This document shows positions 3,058-28,589 of a stretch of 33,356 bases of DNA, in pieces. The notes beneath the pieces were generated by a model, which saw only the letters and a list, made by a program, of their open reading frames with translations, made no database searches and was not told where the DNA came from. How positions within the stretch are numbered: the first letter of the stretch is position 1; each line of letters opens with the position of its first letter. Origin of the DNA: Pyrinomonadaceae bacterium (GTDB lineage Bacteria > Acidobacteriota > Blastocatellia > Pyrinomonadales > Pyrinomonadaceae); the NCBI GenBank assembly GCA_031389475.1, contig JANMSP010000422.1, positions 1 through 33,356 of the forward strand. The letters run 5' to 3'. Made by a program: the position numbers and the translations under genes.

Positions 3058-3567
3058 TTATTCGATTCTGATCGCCGTTACCTTCCACCGGATATTCGCC
3101 CGGTCATCGGTTTCGTCGAAACCGTCCAAGCTTAGTGTAATAGGAATCGTGTCTTCCGGCCCGAGCCGTTCTCGCTGCGTGGGTATCACCAGTACGCGCT
3201 TTTCCCGAAGCACCGCGTTGAACTGATCGACGACTGCCACGTTCACCTCCAGACCATTAATATTATTCGTTCCTTTATTGCGAATATTGCCGGTGATGAA
3301 CATCGAAATTTTGCCGAAAGCATTTGGCGACTGCACAGTGCGCGGATCGGTCGAGATGATAATGTCTTTAGTTATCCGTTGGAATTCCGGCGAACCTTCG
3401 CGGAATGAACCTTCCAATATCGATGCCATCTGATCTTCCATCGATGGGCGGAACGACATCGCGAAAATAGCAGCTGCGATAAGCGCAACGCCGACCAGGC
3501 CGCCGATGATGAGGATTTTACTATTGCCTTTTTTTTCTTCAGTTTGCTCGAGCAGCATTATGTTCAA
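3058..3567 (-). CDS. Hypothetical single-pass membrane protein
   Basis: A 169-aa ORF with one N-terminal TM helix (ILIIGGLVGVALIAAAIFAM). I recognise no family. Confidence 0.6.
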   Translation of the reverse strand: MNIMLLEQTEEKKGNSKILIIGGLVGVALIAAAIFAMSFRPSMEDQMASILEGSFREGSPEFQRITKDIIISTDPRTVQSPNAFGKISMFITGNIRNKGTNNINGLEVNVAVVDQFNAVLREKRVLVIPTQRERLGPEDTIPITLSLDGFDETDDRANIRWKVTAIRIE

Positions 3568-3698
3568 TAACCTCTTTCTACTTAGACCAATGTTTTCCTA
3601 AAAAGTTCCAATAGGTTATCATTTTAGACATCGAACCTAAAACCTCTAAAAGCAGCGAAACGGCCGCTCATTATGTCGAGGTAGCTCTTCCGCTTCCC

Positions 3699-6119
3699 TT
3701 GCGGCGAACATTTACCTACCGGCTTCCAATCGGATTTGGCGGCCTCGTAAAGCCCGGTTCGCGGCTGCTTGTACCGTTCGGAAAACGCAGCCTGACCGGA
3801 TATACCGTCGCTCTTTCAGCGGAACTCGATCCTGAACTCGGTATAGACGAATCCGTCGTAAAAGATGCTGCCGTACTGCTCGACGAAGAACCGCTGCTGA
3901 CCGAAGAAATACTCGCCCTCACGCAGTGGACCGCGGATTATTACGCCGCGTCGTGGGGCGAAATTCTAAAAGCTTCGCTTCCTGCCGGAATCAACACGGC
4001 AAGTGAAATGGTCGTACAGATCACCGAAACCGGACGTGAAGAGCTTCAAAAGATTCCAAGTGCATCATCGGTTCGCAGCCAAATTCTTCGCTTCATTGCT
4101 GACAACGCCGACGTGTCACGTCGCGGACTTGTAAAAGAATTTGGCGAAGCGAATGCGAAACGCGGCATTCGTGAGTTGGTCGCAAAAGGCCTGCTTTCGA
4201 CTCACCAGCGAAACGTCACCACGAAGGTAAAAGTAAAGCTTCGCAAGGCCGTCCGCCTCGTTGCGGAAAACGCTGCTGATGTCGAACCAAAGCCACTCAC
4301 GCCCGTTCAACAGAAAATAATCGATACGACTGCGGAAAGCGGCGGCGAAATATTGTTCACGGAACTCATTGAAAAGGCAGATGTCGGTGCCTCATCGATC
4401 AATACGCTGGCAAAACGAGGGCTGATCGAAATATTTGTACAGGAAGTCTTGCGTGACCCGCTGGCGAATGCGGAATTTCCTACACTCGATGATCTGATAT
4501 TGAATGCTGAACAGTCTTTTGCTCTTAAAGAAATACAGAAAGCTCTGGAATCGAACAGCTACAAGGCCTTTCTGCTTCGCGGCGTAACGGGCAGCGGTAA
4601 AACCGAGGTTTATATCCGGGCAATGCGTAGTGCCCTGGACAGCGGCAAATCCGCGTTAATGCTTGTGCCTGAAATTGCCCTTACGCCGATCTTTTCCCGA
4701 CGGCTGCGCGTTATTTTTGGCGATGAGGTTGCAATTCTTCACTCAAATCTTTCGCCCGGCGAGCGTTTTGACGAATGGCGGCGAATACGAAAAGGTCAGG
4801 CCAGGATTGCTATCGGAACCCGGTCTGCCGTCTTCGCTCCGCTGCAGAATATCGGGCTGGTAATTGTTGACGAAGAACATGACGGCTCGTATCGACAACA
4901 CGAAGCTCCGTATTACGGCGCCCGTGACGTAGCCGTTATGCGGGCAAATCTCGCGAATGCCACAGTTATTTTGGGTTCAGCAACTCCGGCGCTCGAAACT
5001 TTTCAGAATGCAAAGGACGGAAAATACCAGTATCTTCAATTGCAAAATCGTATCGGCGGGCGCCCGCTCGCTAAAGCTGAATTGATCGATATGCGGGACG
5101 TTTTTCGCCAGGCCGGCAAGGACATTTCGCTTTCACCGCAGCTCATTGAAGGAATACTGGAAACCCATTCAAAAGGCGAGCAGTCGATAATCCTGTTAAA
5201 CCGCCGTGGTTTTTCGCAGTTTGTCCTTTGCCGGACATGCGGCGAGAGCCTTAGATGCAAAAACTGCGACATTACGCTTACATATCATAAACGCGATTCG
5301 CGGCTCGTATGCCATTATTGCGGTCATAATGTGGCCGTTCCGAACAATTGCCCGTTTTGCAAAAGTGAGTTTCTGTATTTCATCGGTGAAGGCACCGAGC
5401 AACTTGAGGTCACGCTGAATAAAAAATTCCCGGACCTCCGCATTGCCCGCATTGACCGCGACACGATGGCCAAACGCGGCGAAATGGCGAAGATATTGAT
5501 CGGATTCGATAATGGCGAGATAGATATGCTGGTCGGGACGCAGATGCTGGCGAAGGGGCACGATTTTCACAATGTCACGCTGGTCGGCGTGATCTCCGTT
5601 GACACTGGTTTAGGTCTTCCCGATTTTCGCTCGGCGGAAAGGACGTTTCAGCTTCTAACTCAAGTTGCGGGGCGTGCCGGACGCGGCGGTTTGCCTGGAC
5701 GCGTGATGATCCAAACATATTATCCGGAACACTATGCTTTGCGCCACGCTCGCGAGCAGGATTTCGAGGCTTTCTTTACCGAAGAAATGCGTTACCGGAA
5801 ACGGATGAGTTATCCGCCATTTGTGGTGCTGGCGTCCATCCTAATTAAACACGAGGATTATAAACACGCTCTCGAAAATGGGCAGTTATTGAAGAAGTGT
5901 TTAGATAATGCGAATACGGAAAAAGCGTGCAGGATATTGGGAGTGGCACCCGCGTCACTGTCGCGGCTGAAAGGTGAATACCGGCTTCAGATTCTGATCA
6001 AATCCGAAAGTCGGCAAAAGCTGAGAGAACTTCTTGATTTCGGGCTGAGCGAAGCCGAAACGAGCGAATGCGACTTGCGAATAGTCCACGTAGAGATTGA
6101 TCCTGTGAGTTTAATGTAA
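3699..6119 (+). CDS. priA: Primosomal protein N' (replication restart helicase PriA)
   Basis: Walker A GVTGSGKT, DEEH box (VDEEHD), and Cys-rich zinc motifs CRTCG...CKNCD...CHYCG...CPFC. The annotated TTG start is doubtful because PriA-like sequence continues upstream in frame (see finding). Confidence 0.93.
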   Translation: MRRTFTYRLPIGFGGLVKPGSRLLVPFGKRSLTGYTVALSAELDPELGIDESVVKDAAVLLDEEPLLTEEILALTQWTADYYAASWGEILKASLPAGINTASEMVVQITETGREELQKIPSASSVRSQILRFIADNADVSRRGLVKEFGEANAKRGIRELVAKGLLSTHQRNVTTKVKVKLRKAVRLVAENAADVEPKPLTPVQQKIIDTTAESGGEILFTELIEKADVGASSINTLAKRGLIEIFVQEVLRDPLANAEFPTLDDLILNAEQSFALKEIQKALESNSYKAFLLRGVTGSGKTEVYIRAMRSALDSGKSALMLVPEIALTPIFSRRLRVIFGDEVAILHSNLSPGERFDEWRRIRKGQARIAIGTRSAVFAPLQNIGLVIVDEEHDGSYRQHEAPYYGARDVAVMRANLANATVILGSATPALETFQNAKDGKYQYLQLQNRIGGRPLAKAELIDMRDVFRQAGKDISLSPQLIEGILETHSKGEQSIILLNRRGFSQFVLCRTCGESLRCKNCDITLTYHKRDSRLVCHYCGHNVAVPNNCPFCKSEFLYFIGEGTEQLEVTLNKKFPDLRIARIDRDTMAKRGEMAKILIGFDNGEIDMLVGTQMLAKGHDFHNVTLVGVISVDTGLGLPDFRSAERTFQLLTQVAGRAGRGGLPGRVMIQTYYPEHYALRHAREQDFEAFFTEEMRYRKRMSYPPFVVLASILIKHEDYKHALENGQLLKKCLDNANTEKACRILGVAPASLSRLKGEYRLQILIKSESRQKLRELLDFGLSEAETSECDLRIVHVEIDPVSLM

Positions 6120-20226: not shown

Positions 20227-20508
20227 ATGAAAGCAATTTGGAACGGACAAGTTTTAGCGGAGAGCGAAGCCACCGTAGTCGTCGAAGGAAATCATTATTT
20301 CCCGGCCGAATCACTTGACACGGAGTATTTACAGCCGACCGAAACCCACTCTGTATGTGGCTGGAAAGGAACCGCAAATTATTATGACGTTGTCGTAAAT
20401 GGCGAAACGAATGGCGATGCGGCATGGTATTACCCGGAAGCGAAAGACGAAGCTAAGAATATAGAAAACTACGTCGCCTTTTGGAAAGGCGTCGAAGTAA
20501 CGGAATGA
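20227..20508 (+). CDS. DUF427 domain protein
   Basis: 93 aa. WNGQVLAES...VEGNHYFP...CGWKG.ANYY...AWYY... is the characteristic DUF427 pattern. AGGAAG lies upstream. The stop overlaps the mutS2 ATG (ATGA at 20505-20508). Confidence 0.85.
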   Translation: MKAIWNGQVLAESEATVVVEGNHYFPAESLDTEYLQPTETHSVCGWKGTANYYDVVVNGETNGDAAWYYPEAKDEAKNIENYVAFWKGVEVTE

Positions 20509-23039
20509 GTTATTCGCTCGAAACATTAGAATACGCAAAGCTGCTCGAACTTGTCAGCCGCCACGCTCAAACGCCGATGGGTGAAGAGCGTTTCGCGATA
20601 TTGCGCCCGAAAACGAGCAGAATAGAGGTCGAACGCGATCTGGCGGCGGTTTCGGAAACAATAGTGTTGAATGAAGAAAAGCAGATCTCGTGGTCATTCA
20701 GCGGACTGGAAGATCCGGGCGACGCCGTTGCGATTCTGAGAATTAAGAACGCCACGCTCGAGCCGAACCTTCTCCTCGAAGTCTCTCGCGTTTGTAATCA
20801 GGCTTTGTTTGCCCGATCTTCGATTCAGCCGGAAAAGGAAGTTGCACCTGTCTTATGGCAGATCGTCGAAAATATTCCACCGAGTTTATTGGCCGCGATA
20901 GAAAAGATCAACAAAAAGCTGCTTCCCGGCGGCGAAATCGACGATTCGGCTTCACCGGAACTTGCGAAAATCCGCCGCGAGATAAATTCGCAACGGGCAC
21001 GTTTGACCAAATCTCTCGAAGCCGTAATGAGAAATTCCGGTAATGCGATCCAGGACGAGATCGTCACCGTCCGCAACGAGCGCTTTGTTATTCCCGTCAA
21101 ATCCGATTTTCGCGGCAAGGTCGGCGGTGTCGCCCACGGTTTTTCGTCGTCGGGCGCGACCGTCTTCATCGAACCGTTGGAGGCAATAGAAGCCAACAAC
21201 GAGCTGCAAAATCTAAAAGGCAAGGAAGAACGAGAGATAGCCCGAATTCTTTTTGCATTGACCGAAGAATTGCGCGAGCAGCTTCCCGCAATTGAAACAT
21301 CAGTCCAAGCGGTTGCCGAGCTTGACTTCATTAAAGCTAAAGTAGAATTCGGCAGAAAATTCAAAGCCATAGTACCGGAAATATCTGATGAAGAGACGCT
21401 CGATTTCGTTGATGCCCGCCATCCTTTGCTGGACGAAAATCTCCGCGCGCAGGCCGCAAAAGCCGGGTCAGTACCGGGAGCCATAGCGACTGGGTTCTTA
21501 AACGATGATAAAACTGGAACCACAAAAACACACGAAATAACACTAAATAAGAAAGAAATGCATTCCGGCATAGTCCCTGTTTCATTCAAGCTGACCAAAC
21601 AAAACGGCGTCATGATAATCTCCGGCGCCAACGCCGGCGGAAAGACCGTCGTCATGAAAACCGCAGGCCTGCTTTCTCTAATGGCGATCTCCGGCCTTCC
21701 CGTTCCCGCCGCGTCCGCGAAAATTCCGTTTTATCATTCAGTTCTCGCGGACATCGGCGACCATCAATCGCTGGCCGCAAATCTCTCGACATTTTCATCG
21801 CATATGTCGAATATCGCCGGAATGATGGAGCATTGCCAATCTCCTTCGCTTGTTTTGCTTGACGAAGTGGGCACCGGTACCGATCCTGAAGAAGGCTCGG
21901 CTCTCGGCGTTGCGATCGTCGATCATTTTCGCCGAAAATGCGGTTCTCAGGTAATTGCTTCGACTCACTATCGGGGCCTAAAAATCTATGCGGCCAACGA
22001 CGAAAATGTTATCAACGCCTCGGTCGAGTTCAATGAAAAAACATTGCAGCCAACGTATAAACTTTTAATCGGTTTAGCCGGAGCGTCTTCCGGTATTGAA
22101 ATCGCCGGGCGTTTCGGGATACTACCCGAAGTTATTGATAACTCCCGGAGTAATCTGGATATTTCCGCTAAGAAAGCCGAAGATTATCTGCGAAAGCTGC
22201 AAACGGAATCAACGCTTGCCGAAGATCTGCGGATCGCCCTCGAAGAAGAACGCGAAGCTGTCGCGATGAAATATGCCGGACTCGAGATAGAGGCGAAACA
22301 GAAAGAAAAAGCACGCCAGAAGCAATTTCAGTCGGAGCTTGCCCAGACGATCGAAGAATTTGAACGTCAATCGAAAACATTTATCAAATCCATCGAAGAC
22401 AAGGCTCTCCGCAACAAATTGGACAAAGAACGCGACACCCGCAAAGCTGAATTGAATCGGGCAGTATTGTCCAAAGTCCAAAGTCCAAAGTCCAGAAATG
22501 GTGGATTATGGCAGGCAGAAACACGACCGGTCGGAAGTGTGTCAGATTCAGCATTTGAGATTAGTAACTCGCCGATTGTCGTCGGCAGCAAAGTTTACAC
22601 CTCATTCGGCAACATCGGCACCGTCGAAAAAATGGACAAGGAAGTCGCGGAAGTATTAGTCGGCGGAATGCGGCTGCGTGAAAAGATAAAGGATTTACAG
22701 GCGGTCGCGGAAGAACAAATTTCAACCGAAGGCAAGCTCGAAAAGCTCCAAAGCCAAGCCCAATCCGCAAATCTCCGCCTCGATACCGAAGATATGAACG
22801 CCGAGCTAAACCTGATCGGCCAAACAACCGCCGACGCCGAATACGAGATCGACCGCTTCCTCGACGAAGCCTACCTCGCCTCCCTGCCCCGCGTCCGCAT
22901 AATCCACGGCTTCGGCACCGGAGCATTAAAAAATTTCGTCCACCATTTCCTAAAAGGCCACCCGCACATCGACAAGTTCAGCTTCGCCCCGCAAGATCAA
23001 GGCGGCCATGGTGCTACAATAGCGGAAATGAAGCAATAG
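20505..23039 (+). CDS. mutS2: Endonuclease MutS2 (MutS domains III-V plus a C-terminal Smr domain)
   Basis: It has ARHPLL, Walker A GANAGGKT, STFSSHM, Walker B LLDEVGTGTDP and THY. The C-terminal Smr domain has RIIHGFGTGALK. The start is taken at MSYSLETLEY (20505). It carries two repeat-derived in-frame segments (see findings). Confidence 0.92.
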   Translation: MSYSLETLEYAKLLELVSRHAQTPMGEERFAILRPKTSRIEVERDLAAVSETIVLNEEKQISWSFSGLEDPGDAVAILRIKNATLEPNLLLEVSRVCNQALFARSSIQPEKEVAPVLWQIVENIPPSLLAAIEKINKKLLPGGEIDDSASPELAKIRREINSQRARLTKSLEAVMRNSGNAIQDEIVTVRNERFVIPVKSDFRGKVGGVAHGFSSSGATVFIEPLEAIEANNELQNLKGKEEREIARILFALTEELREQLPAIETSVQAVAELDFIKAKVEFGRKFKAIVPEISDEETLDFVDARHPLLDENLRAQAAKAGSVPGAIATGFLNDDKTGTTKTHEITLNKKEMHSGIVPVSFKLTKQNGVMIISGANAGGKTVVMKTAGLLSLMAISGLPVPAASAKIPFYHSVLADIGDHQSLAANLSTFSSHMSNIAGMMEHCQSPSLVLLDEVGTGTDPEEGSALGVAIVDHFRRKCGSQVIASTHYRGLKIYAANDENVINASVEFNEKTLQPTYKLLIGLAGASSGIEIAGRFGILPEVIDNSRSNLDISAKKAEDYLRKLQTESTLAEDLRIALEEEREAVAMKYAGLEIEAKQKEKARQKQFQSELAQTIEEFERQSKTFIKSIEDKALRNKLDKERDTRKAELNRAVLSKVQSPKSRNGGLWQAETRPVGSVSDSAFEISNSPIVVGSKVYTSFGNIGTVEKMDKEVAEVLVGGMRLREKIKDLQAVAEEQISTEGKLEKLQSQAQSANLRLDTEDMNAELNLIGQTTADAEYEIDRFLDEAYLASLPRVRIIHGFGTGALKNFVHHFLKGHPHIDKFSFAPQDQGGHGATIAEMKQ
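21467..21562. repeat. Repeat-element-derived segment embedded in frame in mutS2
   Basis: 21467-21499 matches 33285-33317 at 31/33 nt. 21512-21543 matches the copy C right arm at 19903-19934 at 30/32 nt. Both counts are from hand alignment. Confidence 0.65.
22469..22496. repeat. Heptanucleotide tandem repeat inside the mutS2 coding sequence
   Basis: GTCCAAA x3 (22469-22489) followed by GTCCAGA (22490-22496). It encodes ...SKVQSPKSR... in the linker before the C-terminal KOW-like/Smr region. Confidence 0.8.
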
Positions 23040-23043
23040 TTTA

Positions 23044-23072
23044 TTGACATTAGAGCAAAAAAAGACGAAAAT
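23044..23072 (+). promoter_or_regulatory. Promoter candidate preceding a long (about 235-nt) leader
   Basis: TTGACA (23044-23049), a 17-nt spacer, then GAAAAT (23067-23072). The next plausible start is the ATG at 23314, with GGAG 7 nt upstream. Confidence 0.3.
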
Positions 23073-23313
23073 CGAACCATTGCTTATCTTGGGGAAACCG
23101 TGCAACGAACATCGGCAGTTAAGGCCGAACCGATGCTGTAGTGCCTCGAAATGGTAGAGACTACTCCGGTTCACCTGTTACTGTTTATTCGCCCAGCGAT
23201 TTTCTTGAGTTTTTGCAAAGTGAATCCAATGAGTGAAGCAAAACTTTCATTCTAATCGTAAGCGATCTGCGACCCGAACCCGCCTGAATTCGCAAACAAA
23301 TCGGAGTACTCCT

Positions 23314-24003
23314 ATGAAATACTTTAATTCGCTCTTATATTTGGTAGCGCTGCTCGTTCTTGCTGAGATCCAATTCGGCCAGATAAAGCCGCAAGCGATT
23401 TTGATTGATGAGTTTGGCACGCTAGGTTGCGAAGATTTAAGTGCCCGTCAGGATGCTTTTCTCTCTGAAATTCAGAATGAGAAAAACGCGAAAGGCTACG
23501 CTGTGATTTACGCAGAAAGTGGTGATTTAAAAAAGAATCTTCGTTATGAAAGTTATATTAATGGCCATTTGAATGCCCGACGTTTTAATAATCATGAATT
23601 TATTACTGTACGAGGCCCTGAGAGGGAAAAATTAAAGATAGAGTTTTGGAAAGTACCAAAAGATGCTGACACACCTGTTTTTCCGACCGCGACCTGGTCA
23701 TATGTCATTCCACAAACGACGAAACCCTACATCTTCACTGCGGATACTTATGGTGGCGGACCCTGTGAAAGCACTTCTTACGTCAAACTCTTTGCGGACC
23801 TTCTTTTAGCAAATCCTAAGTCTCATGGCAATGTGGTCATTCGAGATAAAACAAATCGTAATTTTCGAAAACGCCAAGTCGGAGTCGTTCGAGAACTGGT
23901 CAATAGATACAACATTCCCCTTCATCGCCTCAAATTTTTCTTTGTCAAAGATAAGAACTATCCTTACGATTTTACTGATGTGGAATATTGGTTGGTTCCT
24001 TGA
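23314..24003 (+). CDS. Secreted hypothetical protein with an internal two-fold domain duplication
   Basis: It has a signal peptide (MKYFNSLLYLVALLVLAEIQFGQ). Two halves of about 95 aa each show KP..(I/F)..D.(F/Y)G..(G)CE...G.V(V)I...(E)(F/Y)W.VP. It is AT-rich by eye. The start is at 23314 (GGAG upstream) rather than 23233. Confidence 0.65.
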   Translation: MKYFNSLLYLVALLVLAEIQFGQIKPQAILIDEFGTLGCEDLSARQDAFLSEIQNEKNAKGYAVIYAESGDLKKNLRYESYINGHLNARRFNNHEFITVRGPEREKLKIEFWKVPKDADTPVFPTATWSYVIPQTTKPYIFTADTYGGGPCESTSYVKLFADLLLANPKSHGNVVIRDKTNRNFRKRQVGVVRELVNRYNIPLHRLKFFFVKDKNYPYDFTDVEYWLVP

Positions 24004-24017
24004 AGAACATAGCGATG

Positions 24018-24140
24018 ATGCTCTACGACCAGAACTTCATCGACGATCTTAAACCCGGTTTCAATCTGGTGCGGATAGTCGAACACTATGCTGCGATCAA
24101 GAAAAAAAGTTCGAATTGGATGGATTGCTGTCCATTTCAT
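24018..24140 (+). pseudogene. Remnant of the dnaG 5' end (codons 1-41), duplicated
   Basis: MLYDQNFIDDLKPGFNLVRIVEHYAAIKKKSSNWMDCCPFH aligns to dnaG codons 1-41 (24888-25010). That is about 101/123 nt and about 31/41 aa by hand alignment. Homology ends right after CCPFH, and the frame terminates 25 codons later. Confidence 0.8.
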
Positions 24141-24204
24141 TTAGCAAAAGCTCCATACCGAAATTACATTGACAAAATTGTTGGATAAAGAAGAAAATTC
24201 ACAT

Positions 24205-24435
24205 ATGACAGCAACAGTCGAATTAACATTGCCGGATAGCGTCGATTTGAGCGATATCGATATCAAGATGATAGTCGCGGCGAAGCTGTTCGATATGGGC
24301 GAACTGTCATCGGGACAAGCTGCGAAGATAGTTGGCATAACAAGGCGTGAGTTTTTAGAAACCGTCGGCAAGTATGGTGTTTCGATATTTCAGTATGATG
24401 CCGACGAATTGGAAGAAGATCTCGCAAGATTATGA
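24205..24435 (+). CDS. UPF0175-family antitoxin
   Basis: 76 aa. ...AAKLFDMGELSSGQAAKIVGITRREFLETVGKYGVSIF... matches the UPF0175 pattern of a helix, an HTH-like segment and the 'GI(P/S)' end. There is a 4-nt ATGA overlap with the downstream PIN gene. Confidence 0.8.
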   Translation: MTATVELTLPDSVDLSDIDIKMIVAAKLFDMGELSSGQAAKIVGITRREFLETVGKYGVSIFQYDADELEEDLARL

Positions 24436-24887
24436 CCCAACAAATCGTCATTGCGGATGCAAGCTGCCTGATAACGCTCGACAACATCAACGAAAATGAC
24501 TTACTTCCGAAGTTATTTGACCAAATTTATGTGACTCCCGAGGTAGCTGGCGAAGTAGGTGAGTCCTTGCCTGAATGGGCCTCTCAAAGGTCAAGCTCAA
24601 ATCAGTCCCTCGTAAATCAACTTTCTGTCGAACTCGAAATCGGGGAGGCTTCCTCGATCGCACTTGCTCTCGAACTCTCAGATTGCCTTCTTATAATTGA
24701 TGAGAAAAAAGGACGCCGCATCGCTAAACAGTTAGGGCTAAACATCACCGGCACCTTTGGAATCATCATGAAGGGATTCGAGGCCGGTTTGGTCGATGCT
24801 CTAAGTACAATTTTGGAGCGACTCGAACGAGTGGATTTTCGTATTTCCGAGACGCTTAAGGAGAAAATGCGAGCTAAAATCCAATAA
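24432..24887 (+). CDS. PIN-like toxin (DUF3368 family)
   Basis: 151 aa. It has the N-terminal IVIADASCLITL (PIN Asp), GEASSIALALE, and LLIIDEKKGRRIAKQLGLNITGTFGII, which is the DUF3368 signature. The stop TAA is immediately followed by the dnaG ATG. Confidence 0.8.
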   Translation: MTQQIVIADASCLITLDNINENDLLPKLFDQIYVTPEVAGEVGESLPEWASQRSSSNQSLVNQLSVELEIGEASSIALALELSDCLLIIDEKKGRRIAKQLGLNITGTFGIIMKGFEAGLVDALSTILERLERVDFRISETLKEKMRAKIQ

Positions 24888-26735
24888 ATGCTCTACGACC
24901 AATACTTCATCGACGATCTCAAAAGCCGTGCGGACCTGGTGCGGATTATCGAACCGTATGCTCCGCTAAAGAAAAAGGGTTCGAATTGGATGGGATGCTG
25001 TCCGTTTCATCAGGAAAAGACGCCTTCGTTTTCGGTGAGCCCGACGAAGGGTTTTTATAAATGTTTCGGGTGCGGGAAGGGCGGGAACGCTTATACTTTT
25101 TTGATGGAGATGGAGGGTTTGAACTTTCCCGAGGCGATCCAGCGTGTGGCCGAGATTTCCGGCATTCCGCTGCCCGAACCGGTTGACGATAAGCAGTACG
25201 CTCAAAGCAAAAAGAAAAAGGAAGAAAAGAAAAAGATCGCCGACGAGGTGATCGAACTGAACCGCATCGCTCTTGATTTTTGGGAAGCGGAACTGCAGTC
25301 GAAGAATGCGAAGGCAAAAGCTGCACGTGAATATCTGGAGACTCGCGGGATCACCGAAGCAACGCAAAAGGCTTTTCGCATCGGATTTTCTCCCGATAGC
25401 TGGGATTCGCTGCTGAATCATCTCAAAGAAAAAAAGGCCGACGAAAAACTCATTGAGCAAAGCGGCCTGGTCTCGGTAAATGAAGAAAAAGACCGCGTAT
25501 TCGACCGTTTTCGCGGACGTATAATGTTTCCGGTGCTCGATGTAAACGGCAATCCCGTTGCATTCGGCGCCCGTGCGATGGGCGACGACCAGCCGAAATA
25601 TCTCAATTCGCCGGAAACCCCTGCGTACATTAAAGGCCAGCATCTTTACGGCCTTTCCCACGGCAAAGAAGAGATCAGAAAAAAGAAATTCGTGATTCTC
25701 GTCGAAGGTTATTTGGACCTAATCGCTCTTTATCAATTCGGAATTAGTAACACCGCAGCGAGCCTCGGCACAGCCTTTACGCCCGAACAATCAAAACTCC
25801 TTAGCCGTTTTGCGAAAAAGGTCGTGATAAATTACGACGGAGATAATGCCGGAAAAAAAGCCGCCCGGAGAGCTGTCGAAGAACTTTTGACGCAGGATTT
25901 CGACGTAAAGGTACTCTTGCTGCCCGACGGTAACGATCCTGACGATTTTCTACGCGAACACGGCGCCGACAGCTACAACGAGGCCCGTGGGAAATCACAG
26001 CCTTATCTTCAATTTGTTTTGGACGCCGCGATGGCCGGGCGAAATTTGAACGTCGCCAAACAAAAGGCTGACGCCATTGAAGATGTGCTGCCCGTCTTGG
26101 CAATCCCCAAAAATCCGATACAAAAACGAGAGAGTTTCGATCAAGCGATGAACTTTTTCCGTGTGGAGGACGCGGGCTTAAAGCGGGAATTGTGGAATGC
26201 GGTCAAGCACGGAAATAAACTTGAACCGGAAGCGTTGAAAAGGCAGGTGAAGCGAGCAACGCAGGTAAAAATGACTGTGGCGGAGCAGCATTTGTTGGAA
26301 TTGTTAATTTACGATCCGGAACTTCAGGAGAAAATCCTCGATCAACTGGAAGAAACCGATTACGAATCCCTTCCGACCGCTCCGATTTTTCGGGCATTGT
26401 ATGAACTTCAATCGAAGAAAATCCCGATGTCGCACGAGAATTTGATGGAATTGATCGGCGATGACGAAGCGGCCGGCGACTTTGTGCCGCTGCTGCTGAT
26501 GACCGAGCCAAAACGCGAGGGCGGGGAAGTGATCGACGATGTACTGCACGATGCTGAAAACTGCGTTTTCACACTTCGTTTAATGGCAATTTCCAGCCGA
26601 ATCGCCGAGATTTCGCAGGAGGCAATGCATGCCGAACGTAGCGGCGAAGGAATTCTTCACAACCGCCTTACCTTCGAACAGCTCGAGCTTGAAAGAATAA
26701 AGCGCGAGCTACTTAATAGAATCGTCCAAAACTGA
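24888..26735 (+). CDS. dnaG: DNA primase
   Basis: CHC2 zinc finger (CCPFHQEKTPSFSV...YKCFGCGKGG), RNA polymerase core, TOPRIM (ILVEGYLDLIAL...NYDGDNAG) and a C-terminal DnaB-interaction-like helical domain. Confidence 0.93.
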   Translation: MLYDQYFIDDLKSRADLVRIIEPYAPLKKKGSNWMGCCPFHQEKTPSFSVSPTKGFYKCFGCGKGGNAYTFLMEMEGLNFPEAIQRVAEISGIPLPEPVDDKQYAQSKKKKEEKKKIADEVIELNRIALDFWEAELQSKNAKAKAAREYLETRGITEATQKAFRIGFSPDSWDSLLNHLKEKKADEKLIEQSGLVSVNEEKDRVFDRFRGRIMFPVLDVNGNPVAFGARAMGDDQPKYLNSPETPAYIKGQHLYGLSHGKEEIRKKKFVILVEGYLDLIALYQFGISNTAASLGTAFTPEQSKLLSRFAKKVVINYDGDNAGKKAARRAVEELLTQDFDVKVLLLPDGNDPDDFLREHGADSYNEARGKSQPYLQFVLDAAMAGRNLNVAKQKADAIEDVLPVLAIPKNPIQKRESFDQAMNFFRVEDAGLKRELWNAVKHGNKLEPEALKRQVKRATQVKMTVAEQHLLELLIYDPELQEKILDQLEETDYESLPTAPIFRALYELQSKKIPMSHENLMELIGDDEAAGDFVPLLLMTEPKREGGEVIDDVLHDAENCVFTLRLMAISSRIAEISQEAMHAERSGEGILHNRLTFEQLELERIKRELLNRIVQN

Positions 26736-26855: not shown

Positions 26856-28589
26856 ATGGCTGATTACGACGAAAAAGAAGACCTGATGGACCGCCTGGTC
26901 GCGTTGGGCAAACGAAAGAAATTCATTAGTCTCGACGAGCTTCACAGGGAAATTCCTGAAAACATGATGTCTCCCGACGACCTCGAAGACGTGCTCGACC
27001 GTCTGGAAGGCGCAAATATTTCGGTCGCCGAAACCGATTCACAGCTTCTGGAGCGTGCGTCGCAGCTTGCGCTCGATGATGACCCGGCGGTGGTCGAAGA
27101 GGAAGAAGACGACATTGACCTCGATCTTTCGGCGGGTGCGCTGGACAAATCTAACGATCCGGTCCGGCTCTATTTGCGTGAGATGGGAATCGTTCCTCTT
27201 CTTACCCGCGAAGGCGAAGTTACGATTGCGAAACGCATTGAGCGTGGTCAGATCAAAACTCGAAAGACAATTTCACGTTCACCTATCTCGGTAGAACGAT
27301 TGATAAAGATCGGCGACGATCTTAGTCGCGGCAAGGCAAGCATTCGCGAAACGGTCGCATTTTCCGAGCAAGCCGAGATCTCTCTTGAGGAAGATAAGGC
27401 GGAGGAGTATCTACGCTGGACGATCGAAGGCATCGGCAATATTCGTCAAAATTACGAAGCCGCACTGAAAGTGTGGATCGAACTTCGCGAAGAGCAAAAA
27501 GCATCGAAAGGCAAAAAATCGAAAAAGCTTTTGGCTTTGACCAGACAGACAGCTCGCCAACGATTGGAAATCGCCCAGGAGATCAAAAACCTTAACTTGA
27601 CCGAGAATTCGATGCAGAAAATGATCGCATCGGTTCGGAAGGTTGTTGAAGAGATCCGCAAATTTGAAAGGGTGATTAGAAGGGCTGATGAGAGGCTCGA
27701 ACAGAAGCCCGAAGCGGCTGAAAAGAAGGAACTTAACGCCAAGGTCAACGAAGCAAAAAAAGGCTTTGCCGAGATCGAAGAAAGCTTTCACCTGCCGACG
27801 GTTGAGATCAAGCGTTCGTTTCAGACCATCAGCGTCGGCGAATATGAAACGAATGTGGCAAAACGCGAATTGGTCGAGGCCAATCTACGCCTTGTGGTTT
27901 CAATCGCCAAGAAATACACGAATCGCGGGCTGCAGTTCCTCGATCTGATCCAGGAAGGCAACATCGGTTTGATGAAGGCCGTGGACAAATTCGAGTGGCG
28001 CCGCGGTTACAAATTCTCGACCTATGCGACGTGGTGGATTCGACAGGCGATCACGCGAGCTATTGCCGATCAGGCCCGGACGATCCGCATCCCGGTCCAC
28101 ATGATCGAAACGATCAATAAGCTGATCCGCACTTCGCGGCTGCTCGTACAGGAGCTCGGCCGCGAACCGACGAGCGAAGAGATCGCCAAGCGGATGGACA
28201 TTCCGGTTTCGAAAGTTCGAAAGGTTTTGAAGATCGCGCAGGAACCGATCTCGCTCGAAACGCCGATCGGTGAAGAGGAAGATTCGCATCTCGGCGATTT
28301 TATCGAGGATAAATCGATACTCAATCCGGCTGAATCAGTTACCTTTTCTAATCTTCGCGAGATCACCGATGAAGTTCTTGCAACGCTGACGCCGCGTGAG
28401 GAAAAGGTCATCAAAATGCGTTTCGGTCTAGGTAACACGGGCTCAGAACACACGCTCGAAGAGGTCGGCCAGCACTTCGCCGTCACCCGCGAGCGTATCC
28501 GGCAGATCGAAGCCAAAGCGCTGCGAAAGCTGCGACACCCTTCGCGCTCACGACGTCTCAAGGCGTTTTTGGAAGGTAAGCAGAGTTAG
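26856..28589 (+). CDS. rpoD: RNA polymerase primary sigma factor (sigma-70)
   Basis: It has an acidic region 1.1 and a long non-conserved insert. Region 2 reads [46 protein letters not shown]. Region 3 is present. Region 4 reads [29 protein letters not shown]. Confidence 0.95.

What the first reader, a model, noticed from the sequence alone, without database searches (positions are those of the whole stretch)
24018..25010. Toxin-antitoxin cassette flanked by diverged direct repeats of the dnaG 5' end and fused to the dnaG start
Codons 1-41 of dnaG occur twice, at 24018-24140 (remnant) and 24888-25010 (live gene). They match at about 101/123 nt by hand alignment, and homology starts exactly at the ATG and ends right after CCPFH. 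Between them lie only a UPF0175 antitoxin and a DUF3368 PIN toxin. The toxin's TAA is directly followed by the dnaG ATG (TAAATG). This is the footprint expected of an integrative element that targets the 5' end of dnaG and brings a replacement 5' end (attL/attR-like repeats), now reduced to its addiction module. The roughly 18% divergence suggests that the replacement end was foreign or that the event is old. As a consequence, primase has lost its native upstream region. It now appears to be co-transcribed with and translationally coupled to an autoregulated TA operon, upstream of rpoD. The usual rpsU of the rpsU-dnaG-rpoD arrangement is absent.
Basis: partly seen in the sequence, partly recalled or inferred. 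Interest (0 to 1): 0.65.

Follow-up and report, generated by a model that had tools for sequence, protein, structure and literature searches.

The report
Recombination scar at dnaG cassette hotspot
A dead copy of the start of the primase gene dnaG lies in front of a toxin-antitoxin pair in this soil acidobacterium; it is one of many such scars at a spot between mutS2 and dnaG where small gene cassettes are swapped by recombination, with no integrase gene found at the locus.

Summary
Window 24018-24140 and 24888-25010 match at 100/123 nt, and weak similarity runs on to about nt 137. The sequence between them holds a promoter, a UPF0175 antitoxin and a DUF3368/PIN toxin. The toxin's TAA abuts the dnaG ATG.

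In Pyrinomonadaceae the mutS2|dnaG junction is a cassette hotspot. Related genomes have it empty (mutS2 TAA directly before the dnaG ATG) or filled with 1-5 small cassettes. These are this TA pair, a PIN_3 TA pair and two families of secreted proteins.

- dnaG 5' stubs occur in 10 of 44 congeners and in 8 of 20 metagenome contigs. Their ends range from nt 24 to 171, and many have no TA pair beside them.
- Mirror-image stubs of the mutS2 3' end also occur.
- No integrase gene lies on the window's contig or in the related intervals examined.

The best reading is a scar of homology-anchored plus illegitimate recombination. The upstream copy is decaying: 18 of the 23 differences are its own. The live copy has only third-position changes.

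dnaG abutting the upstream gene's stop, and the absence of rpsU, are normal for this clade. This scan has already found the same kind of scar on other DNA (rpoC, pyrC, folD, tsaD, yvcK). No transcript data could be obtained.

The parts
20481..23039 (+). mutS2, the conserved left flank of the hotspot
   Evidence: Pfam MutS_V and Smr. Its 3' end is duplicated as stubs in related loci.
23044..23072 (+). Promoter-like site TTGACA-N17-GAAAAT, 4 nt after the mutS2 stop. It has the same form and position as the TA-cassette promoter of relatives, but no TA genes follow it.
   Evidence: The match to the cassette profile covers the promoter part only and is weak (E 0.32).
23314..24003 (+). orf256-family cassette: a secreted protein of unknown function, 40.6% G+C
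   Evidence: No Pfam hit. 37 paralogues sit in related intervals. The nearest homologue among 150 congeners is 38% identical.
24018..24154 (+). dnaG 5' stub (pseudogene; open frame 24015-24188)
   Evidence: 100/123 identity to the live start. Pfam Zn_ribbon_DnaG. 18 stub-specific substitutions and 11 amino-acid changes.
24155..24168 (+). 14-nt spacer of unknown origin at the novel joint
   Evidence: No similarity to dnaG or to the regions upstream of related cassettes.
24169..24198 (+). TA promoter-like site TTGACA-N18-GAAAAT, 6 nt before the antitoxin ATG. This implies a leaderless or nearly leaderless mRNA.
   Evidence: The same motif and spacing occur in more than 15 orthologous cassettes.
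24205..24435 (+). UPF0175 antitoxin gene
   Evidence: Pfam PF03683, 68.2 bits.
24432..24887 (+). DUF3368 (PIN-like) toxin gene
   Evidence: Pfam PF11848, 31.8 bits. E72 and D90 are invariant and D9 is kept in 6 of 7 orthologues.
24888..26735 (+). Live dnaG; its first 123-137 nt are the second repeat copy
   Evidence: Full set of DnaG domains. Only third-position changes relative to the genus consensus in the repeat.
26856..28589 (+). rpoD, downstream member of the conserved mutS2-dnaG-rpoD order

Best explanation
The repeat is a recombination scar at a cassette hotspot. It is not the footprint of an integrase.

In Pyrinomonadaceae, mutS2 and dnaG originally abut. Different lineages carry different small cassettes at that junction. 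When DNA from a relative with a different filling recombines, one end pairs by homology inside a conserved flank (dnaG or mutS2). The other end is joined illegitimately. This is homology-facilitated illegitimate recombination. Once a stub exists, ordinary recombination between the stub and a dnaG start can do the same job. The product keeps an intact dnaG and leaves a stranded stub of the flank gene.

In this genome the event joined orf256 plus dnaG nt 1-137 to the unit made of promoter, TA pair and full dnaG. Which half was the newcomer is unresolved. The stub has since decayed neutrally. The TA pair looks intact and has its own conserved promoter.

Shown: the anatomy, the recurrence of stubs, their variable ends, the stubs of both flanks, the lack of an integrase gene at the locus, and the direction of decay. 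Inferred: the recombination mechanism, TA activity, and read-through from the TA pair into dnaG.
For: - Intervals in 44 congeners and 20 metagenome contigs show every state. These are empty (G014: mutS2 TAA|ATG dnaG), orf256 only, TA then orf256, orf256 then TA, and arrays of up to five cassettes.
- A profile search finds 13 clear dnaG stubs in 10 of 44 congeners and stubs in 8 of 20 contigs. Their 3' ends lie between nt 41 and 137. G177 has a further decayed stub: blastn aligns its first 23-24 nt, and by eye it reaches about nt 57 (read against G529).
- G305, from another genus, has a 171-nt stub about 97% identical to its live copy. It flanks a PIN_3 TA pair of a different family, so events are ongoing and not tied to one cassette.
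- mutS2 3' stubs of 42-132 nt lie downstream of TA pairs in 9 loci.
- No PF00589 match on the window's contig. Pfam scans of seven representative cassette proteins gave PIN_3, DUF4062 and Y1_Tnp, or nothing.
- Polarised substitutions: 18 stub-specific (9:4:5 by codon position) against 5 in the live copy, all at third positions.
- The four closest genomes (DnaG 89-96% identical) have four different fillings.
- G000 and G177 are 91-93% identical in the last 300 nt of mutS2 and 92-93% in the first 375 nt of dnaG. The genome background is 81-86%.
- The mechanism has published precedent: homology-facilitated illegitimate recombination and orphan arrays (PMC5361080), and TA islets integrated by recombination at flanking core genes (PMC13617665).
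Against: - No recombination event was observed directly.
- No parental or donor sequence was found, so microhomology at the joint could not be checked.
- Many stub ends cluster at nt 57-65, which could point to a preferred site. Shared ancestry of the cassettes can also explain the cluster.
- The higher identity of the flanks may reflect constraint and not exchange.
- Natural transformation or another DNA-uptake route is not documented for these uncultured bacteria.
Confidence: 0.66

Rival explanations
1. One reading: an integrative element with its own site-specific recombinase targeted the dnaG 5' end, carried a replacement 5' end, and has decayed to its addiction module.
For: The layout (stub, cargo, regenerated gene start) is what SXT/R391 leaves at prfC and what dusA-specific islands leave (my own knowledge). 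Stub ends cluster at nt 57-65.
Against: No integrase gene on the window's contig, and none found in the roughly 60 related intervals examined. Every cassette is 0.7-1 kb. Stub ends range from nt 24 to 171. Mirror-image mutS2 3' stubs exist. Stubs occur without this TA pair.
Confidence: 0.07
2. A purely local rearrangement with no incoming DNA. This could be unequal sister-chromatid exchange or a tandem duplication spanning the TA pair and the dnaG start, followed by loss of one TA copy.
For: The stub and live copy of G305 are about 97% identical, so both came from the same or a very close genome. Transformation-triggered unequal crossing-over makes duplications in S. pneumoniae (PMC3784515).
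Against: It needs extra steps (duplication plus precise loss). Neighbouring cassettes are far more diverged than the stubs: orf256 paralogues are 20-38% identical while stubs are 67-91% identical. The closest relatives carry unrelated fillings, which points to exchange between lineages.
Confidence: 0.15
3. Host XerC/D-type recombination at a dif-like half-site within dnaG. Nt 51-61, GGTGCGGATTA here and ...ATAA in most relatives, resemble the XerC arm of E. coli dif.
For: In relatives 10 of 11 bases match the E. coli XerC arm (the dif sequence is from my own knowledge; read). Many stub ends fall at nt 57-63.
Against: Other stub ends lie at nt 24, 70-79, 90, 108, 137 and 171. The duplication starts at the ATG and not at a 28-bp site. 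mutS2 stubs have no such motif. No dif site could be identified in five relatives for comparison.
Confidence: 0.04

Closest known systems
Homology-facilitated illegitimate recombination (Acinetobacter, S. pneumoniae, P. stutzeri), as cited in PMC5361080
   Same: One homologous anchor in a conserved gene and one illegitimate joint. Foreign DNA is inserted next to the anchor. No dedicated recombinase is needed.
   Different: Here the process is inferred from scars and not observed. The joints lie inside the essential gene's 5' end, so a duplicate stub is left in place of the usual deletion.
C-terminal displacement and orphan arrays at Rhs, CDI and T6SS effector-immunity loci (PMC5361080 and the references in it)
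   Same: New modules enter by way of a conserved gene segment. Older modules are pushed aside and keep a stub of the conserved segment, so arrays build up over time.
   Different: Here it is the mirror image: the 5' end of an essential housekeeping gene, and also the 3' end of mutS2. The cargo is TA pairs and secreted proteins, not toxin domains of the anchor gene itself.
Elements that integrate into the 5' end of a gene and supply a new 5' end (SXT/R391 at prfC; dusA-specific islands); my own knowledge
   Same: The target gene stays intact because a replacement 5' end comes with the insert. A stub of the old end is left upstream.
   Different: Those elements encode a tyrosine integrase and have a fixed att core. 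Here there is no integrase, the stub ends vary, and the cassettes are 0.7-1 kb.
Integron cassette arrays
   Same: Small cassettes, often without a promoter of their own, are stacked at one site. TA cassettes are among them. Short repeats lie between cassettes.
   Different: There is no IntI, attI or attC. The repeats are pieces of the neighbouring genes.
TA islets in small chromosomal spots between core genes (Belot et al. 2026, PMC13617665)
   Same: TA pairs with no mobility genes lie between conserved core genes. Their spread is proposed to occur by homologous recombination at the flanks.
   Different: In my term search of that paper, 'direct repeat' and 'scar' did not occur and the two 'duplicat' hits concern other things, so it does not appear to describe gene-end stubs. 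Here the stubs give a physical trace of the joints.

Membership tests
Type II toxin-antitoxin pair, UPF0175 antitoxin plus DUF3368 (PIN-like) toxin | Two small adjacent co-directional genes, antitoxin first, overlapping or abutting | tested here: met
   24205-24435 and 24432-24887 overlap by 4 nt.
Type II toxin-antitoxin pair, UPF0175 antitoxin plus DUF3368 (PIN-like) toxin | Family matches above the curated cut-offs | tested here: met
   PF03683, 68.2 bits against 27.9. PF11848, 31.8 bits against 27.3. The same gene pairing is annotated on plasmids of several phyla.
Type II toxin-antitoxin pair, UPF0175 antitoxin plus DUF3368 (PIN-like) toxin | Conserved acidic residues of a PIN-type active site | tested here: inconclusive
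   E72 and D90 are invariant and D9 is kept in 6 of 7 orthologues. No structure or fourth residue was checked.
Type II toxin-antitoxin pair, UPF0175 antitoxin plus DUF3368 (PIN-like) toxin | The toxin arrests growth and the antitoxin neutralises it | not testable with these tools
   This needs expression assays.
Integrase-mediated integrative element targeting a gene's 5' end (SXT/prfC or dusA type) | A site-specific recombinase gene within or beside the insert | tested here: not met
   None on the window's contig. None found among the cassette families of related intervals; representatives were scanned against Pfam.
Integrase-mediated integrative element targeting a gene's 5' end (SXT/prfC or dusA type) | A fixed att core, so that repeat ends coincide between independent insertions | tested here: not met
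   Stub ends at nt 24, 41, 51-65, 69-79, 90, 108, 137 and 171.
Integrase-mediated integrative element targeting a gene's 5' end (SXT/prfC or dusA type) | The insert regenerates the target's 5' end | tested here: met
   A full dnaG follows the toxin stop, and a stub lies upstream.
Integron | An IntI integrase, attI and attC sites | tested here: not met
   No integrase gene at the locus. The inter-cassette repeats are dnaG or mutS2 stubs, and the repeat finder reports no long or near-perfect inverted repeat at the cassette ends.
Homology-facilitated illegitimate recombination scar | One junction within homology to a conserved flank and the other a novel joint | tested here: met
   The toxin-dnaG junction is the standard one shared with relatives. 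The joint between stub and promoter is unique and includes a 14-nt filler.
Homology-facilitated illegitimate recombination scar | Microhomology at the illegitimate joint, and dependence on RecA and DNA uptake | not testable with these tools
   No parental sequences are available, and the organisms are uncultured.

The most novel reading that the evidence does not exclude
The mutS2|dnaG junction of Pyrinomonadaceae may work as an integron-like cassette array without an integrase. On this reading, stubs of the first roughly 57-170 nt of the essential dnaG gene act as portable recombination sites. Cassettes would be excised and re-inserted by host homologous recombination. The stubs would be refreshed at each move, and some have been taken over as the start codon and the charged N-terminal part of signal peptides of secreted proteins. 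This fusion is in frame at codon 19/20 in at least four deep lineages of one family and in one gene of an unrelated family.
Probability: 0.28. Interest if true: 0.75.

Novelty: new variant of a known kind. Interest (0 to 1): 0.52.

Why it matters
How TA pairs and other tiny cassettes enter chromosomes with no mobility genes nearby is still called unclear in the recent literature (PMC13617665). This locus gives a dense natural series: empty site, single insertions, stacked arrays, fresh stubs (about 97% identical) and old ones (81%), and stubs of both flanks. From such a series the process can be reconstructed.

The locus also shows accessory genes wedged directly in front of an essential replication gene, which ties primase expression to whatever sits upstream. 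It shows too that the first 19 codons of DnaG have been reused as the N-terminus of secreted proteins.

The specific claim of a dnaG-targeting integrative element should be dropped.

Tried and rejected
The dnaG transcription start and read-through from the TA pair are therefore untested.
- dif/Xer idea: two pattern searches in five genomes found nothing above control level, so it could not be tested.
- Is the 240-nt leader after mutS2 (23040-23313) a decayed TA cassette? DNA and protein profiles of the cassette match only the promoter part, weakly (E 0.32). No antitoxin or toxin remnant was found.
- Donor of orf256: the nearest homologue among 150 congeners is 38% identical, so no donor lineage could be named.
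- Which copy is native: the 123 nt are too conserved across the genus to place the stub in a lineage. Parsimony leans slightly towards the TA-dnaG junction being the older one, because it is collinear with G177 at 76.5% identity through the junction. This is not decisive, because TA identity does not track host identity.
- Phage origin: no phage record matches the toxin. Plasmid homologues are only 31-34% identical.
- The family-wide BLAST count of stubs (13 of 284 genomes with two matches) is a lower bound only. At most two candidates per genome were scored, and short stubs are missed.
Full report
**1. The observation**

The repeat finder reports one two-copy family, 24018-24140 and 24888-25010, 123 nt long and 81% identical, with spacing 870. 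My own count is 100/123. A search of the whole 3.8-Mb assembly with the upstream copy finds only these two places, with E 7e-28 for the second.

Similarity begins at the ATG. The 30 nt upstream of each copy are unrelated. After CCPFH there are 7 matches in the next 14 nt and then none. A profile alignment carries the stub to position 136.

- mutS2, 20481-23039
- a 229-256-aa protein with no Pfam match, ending at 24003 (orf256)
- the stub, with an open frame at 24015-24188 and a Pfam Zn_ribbon_DnaG match
- a UPF0175 antitoxin, 24205-24435
- a DUF3368 toxin, 24432-24887
- dnaG, 24888-26735
- rpoD, 26856-28589

The toxin's TAA is followed directly by the dnaG ATG.

**2. The locus in relatives**

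The closest related genomes are labelled Pyrinomonadaceae, a family of Acidobacteriota (record titles). The window's own record was not shown. I collected the region upstream of dnaG from 44 congeners, from several other genera of the family, and from 20 metagenome contigs that carry close relatives of the toxin.

The mutS2-dnaG interval is highly variable. The states seen are:
- Empty. In G014 the mutS2 TAA abuts the dnaG ATG. In G009 the mutS2 TAG overlaps the dnaG GTG.
- orf256 only.
- TA then orf256. G177, the closest relative (DnaG 96% identical), is of this type.
- orf256 then TA, as in G016, G008 and this window.
- Arrays. G468 has mutS2, orf256, stub, three more orf256 paralogues, stub, TA, dnaG.

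Clustering of the interval ORFs gives these cassette families:
- orf256 family, 37 genes
- a 330-aa secreted family, 10 genes
- this TA pair
- a second TA pair with a PIN_3 toxin
- a DUF4062 protein
- an IS200-like Y1 transposase

The four genomes closest to the window (DnaG 89-96% identical) have four different fillings.

**3. Stubs are recurrent, variable, and found on both sides**

I built a nucleotide profile of the first 150 nt of dnaG and scanned the upstream regions. It finds 13 clear stubs in 10 of 44 congeners. Their 3' ends lie at profile positions 51-136.

Eight of the 20 metagenome contigs also have a stub in front of the TA pair, ending at positions 56-108. G177 has a decayed stub directly after its toxin stop. 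blastn aligns its first 23-24 nt. Read by eye against G529, it seems to reach about nt 57.

G305 belongs to another genus. It has a 171-nt stub about 97% identical to its live copy, and that stub flanks the PIN_3 TA pair, not this one.

Several stubs have no TA pair next to them at all (G512, G250, G511, G529, G010).

The mirror image also exists. Stubs of the last 42-132 nt of mutS2 lie downstream of cassettes, usually TA pairs, in G529, G487, L032, L050, L033, L034, L035, L037 and G335.

A coarse family-wide BLAST finds two copies of the dnaG start in 13 of 284 genomes. This is a lower bound.

**4. No recombinase**

The four PF00589 matches in the assembly are all on other contigs. I found no integrase among the cassette families of the related intervals. 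Representatives were scanned against Pfam. The only mobility gene seen is an IS200-like transposase in two genomes.

The cassette boundaries are informative. The right boundary of the TA cassette is constant: the toxin stop abuts or overlaps the dnaG start. The left boundary of homology between cassettes lies a few nt upstream of the -35 hexamer. What lies further left differs from locus to locus. It may be the mutS2 stop, or a dnaG stub of 41, 59, 63, 70, 79, 108 or 137 nt.

**5. Direction of decay**

I polarised the 23 differences between the two copies with ten relatives.
- 18 are changes in the stub alone. They are spread 9:4:5 over codon positions and cause 11 amino-acid replacements.
- 5 are changes in the live copy. 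All are at third codon positions.

The upstream copy is therefore a neutrally decaying pseudogene, and the downstream copy is under purifying selection. The 19% divergence reflects age and decay. It is not evidence for a foreign replacement end.

The live 5' end is 92-93% identical to that of G177 over 375 nt, against 85-91% for the rest of dnaG. The last 300 nt of mutS2 are 91-93% identical. The genome background is 81-86%. This fits repeated exchange through these flanks, though constraint could give the same picture.

**6. Mechanism**

The simplest account is recombination between genomes that carry different fillings. One end pairs by homology in dnaG or mutS2. The other end is joined illegitimately, inside or next to the other conserved gene. 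This leaves a stub. It is the logic of homology-facilitated illegitimate recombination and of orphan arrays at Rhs, CDI and T6SS loci (PMC5361080). It also agrees with the proposal that TA islets spread by recombination at flanking core genes (PMC13617665).

For this window two histories give the same product:
- The unit of promoter, TA pair and dnaG 5' end entered a mutS2-orf256-dnaG chromosome, with the joint at dnaG nt 137.
- The unit of mutS2 3' end, orf256 and dnaG nt 1-137 entered a mutS2-TA-dnaG chromosome, with the joint just upstream of the TA promoter.

The TA-dnaG junction is collinear with that of G177 at 76.5% identity. A plain mutS2-TA-dnaG arrangement also exists, in L106. Both points lean slightly towards the second history. 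Against that, TA identity does not follow host identity. I leave the question open.

**7. Stubs reused as gene starts**

In G010, G511, G529, G520, twice in G250, in G535 (where the unit is inverted) and in L109, the stub ends at codon 19/20 (...RADLVR). There it runs in frame into the hydrophobic core of a signal peptide.

The fused orf256 genes fall into at least four lineages that are only 20-38% identical in protein. Their stubs are 67-91% identical to the resident dnaG start. One fused gene belongs to the unrelated 330-aa family.

Either the same joint arose several times, or an old fusion is renewed each time the cassette moves by recombination between the stub and a dnaG start. The second possibility is the basis of the novel reading given separately in this report.

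**8. Expression**

The antitoxin is preceded by TTGACA-N18-GAAAAT, ending 6 nt before its ATG. The same motif, at the same distance, occurs in more than 15 orthologous cassettes. It is very likely the cassette's promoter, and it would give a leaderless or nearly leaderless mRNA.

No terminator-like site lies between the toxin gene and dnaG. Read-through and translational coupling are therefore plausible.

Tight abutment is the norm at this locus, though. In 18 of 42 congeners the upstream stop lies within -1 to +5 nt of the dnaG start, whichever gene is upstream. Many of the others have a -10-like box (TATAAT or TACGAT) 6 nt before the start codon, which suggests leaderless dnaG mRNAs.

mutS2-dnaG-rpoD is also the gene order in other families of the class. 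The missing rpsU and the missing upstream region are therefore not consequences of the insertion.

**9. Is the TA pair intact?**

Both genes pass Pfam's cut-offs. E72 and D90 are invariant, and D9 is kept in 6 of 7 orthologues. The same gene pairing is annotated on plasmids of bacteria and archaea at 31-34% identity. No phage record matches. Activity remains untested.

**10. Verdict**

It is an ordinary scar of its kind, and the integrative-element reading is not supported. Earlier notes of this scan describe the same type of scar at rpoC, pyrC, folD, tsaD, a thiolase gene and yvcK in unrelated genomes. My reading agrees with those follow-ups.

What this case adds is a family-wide series at a single junction, stubs of both flanks, a fresh example (G305), and the reuse of DnaG's first 19 codons as signal-peptide starts.

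Noticed in passing
L060 (G421, reverse strand), about 4330-5030 in the oriented copy used: In G421 (DnaG 92% identical) a DUF4062-domain ORF runs in frame into dnaG. That dnaG lacks its first four codons and has no ATG, GTG or TTG nearby, giving one 850-aa open frame. Primase may be made as a fusion protein or from an unusual start codon.
   Followed up: partly
Window 23044-23072: TTGACA-N17-GAAAAT lies 4 nt after the mutS2 stop. It has the same form and position as the TA-cassette promoter of relatives such as G520 and L118. Here it is followed by a 240-nt leader and orf256, with no trace of TA genes. It may be a relic of an earlier TA cassette, or simply the usual promoter type of this organism.
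   Followed up: partly
Loci of G281, G435, G450, G261, G511, G534, G535; window 24193-24204: -10-like boxes sit 6-7 nt before start codons: TATAAT before the dnaG TTG in seven genomes, and GAAAAT before the antitoxin ATG. This suggests wide use of leaderless mRNAs in this genus.
   Followed up: no
Window 23314-24003 and related intervals: The orf256 family consists of secreted proteins of about 230 aa with a conserved (V/L)VDEFG...C..(D/E)...R.D motif and an EYW(Y/L)(L/V)P C-terminus. It has no Pfam match. It occurs in tandem arrays of up to four very divergent paralogues, in this sample mostly within the mutS2-dnaG interval, though one search also finds homologues on other contigs. Its function is unknown.
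   Followed up: partly
G520 and G377 intervals; G016 toxin: There are signs of TA erosion. G520 and G377 have an antitoxin gene and no toxin. The G016 toxin has Gly in place of the conserved Asp9.
   Followed up: no
Window 22730-23039 and 24888-25260 compared with G177: The last 300 nt of mutS2 and the first 375 nt of dnaG are 91-93% identical to G177. The rest of both genes is about 81-91% identical outside two repeat-filled stretches of mutS2 (43-57%). Third-position identity in dnaG is 82-83% in this stretch and 58-70% further on. This fits recombination tracts ending in these flanks.
   Followed up: partly
Window 24938-24948 (dnaG nt 51-61) and the same site in relatives: GGTGCGGAT(T/A)A resembles the XerC-binding arm of E. 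coli dif (GGTGCGCATAA) and lies where many stubs end. No dif site could be found in related genomes for comparison.
   Followed up: partly
L024 (G010) 3469-3921; also G455: An IS200-like Y1 transposase gene (Pfam Y1_Tnp, possibly REP-associated) sits in the mutS2-dnaG interval of two congeners.
   Followed up: no
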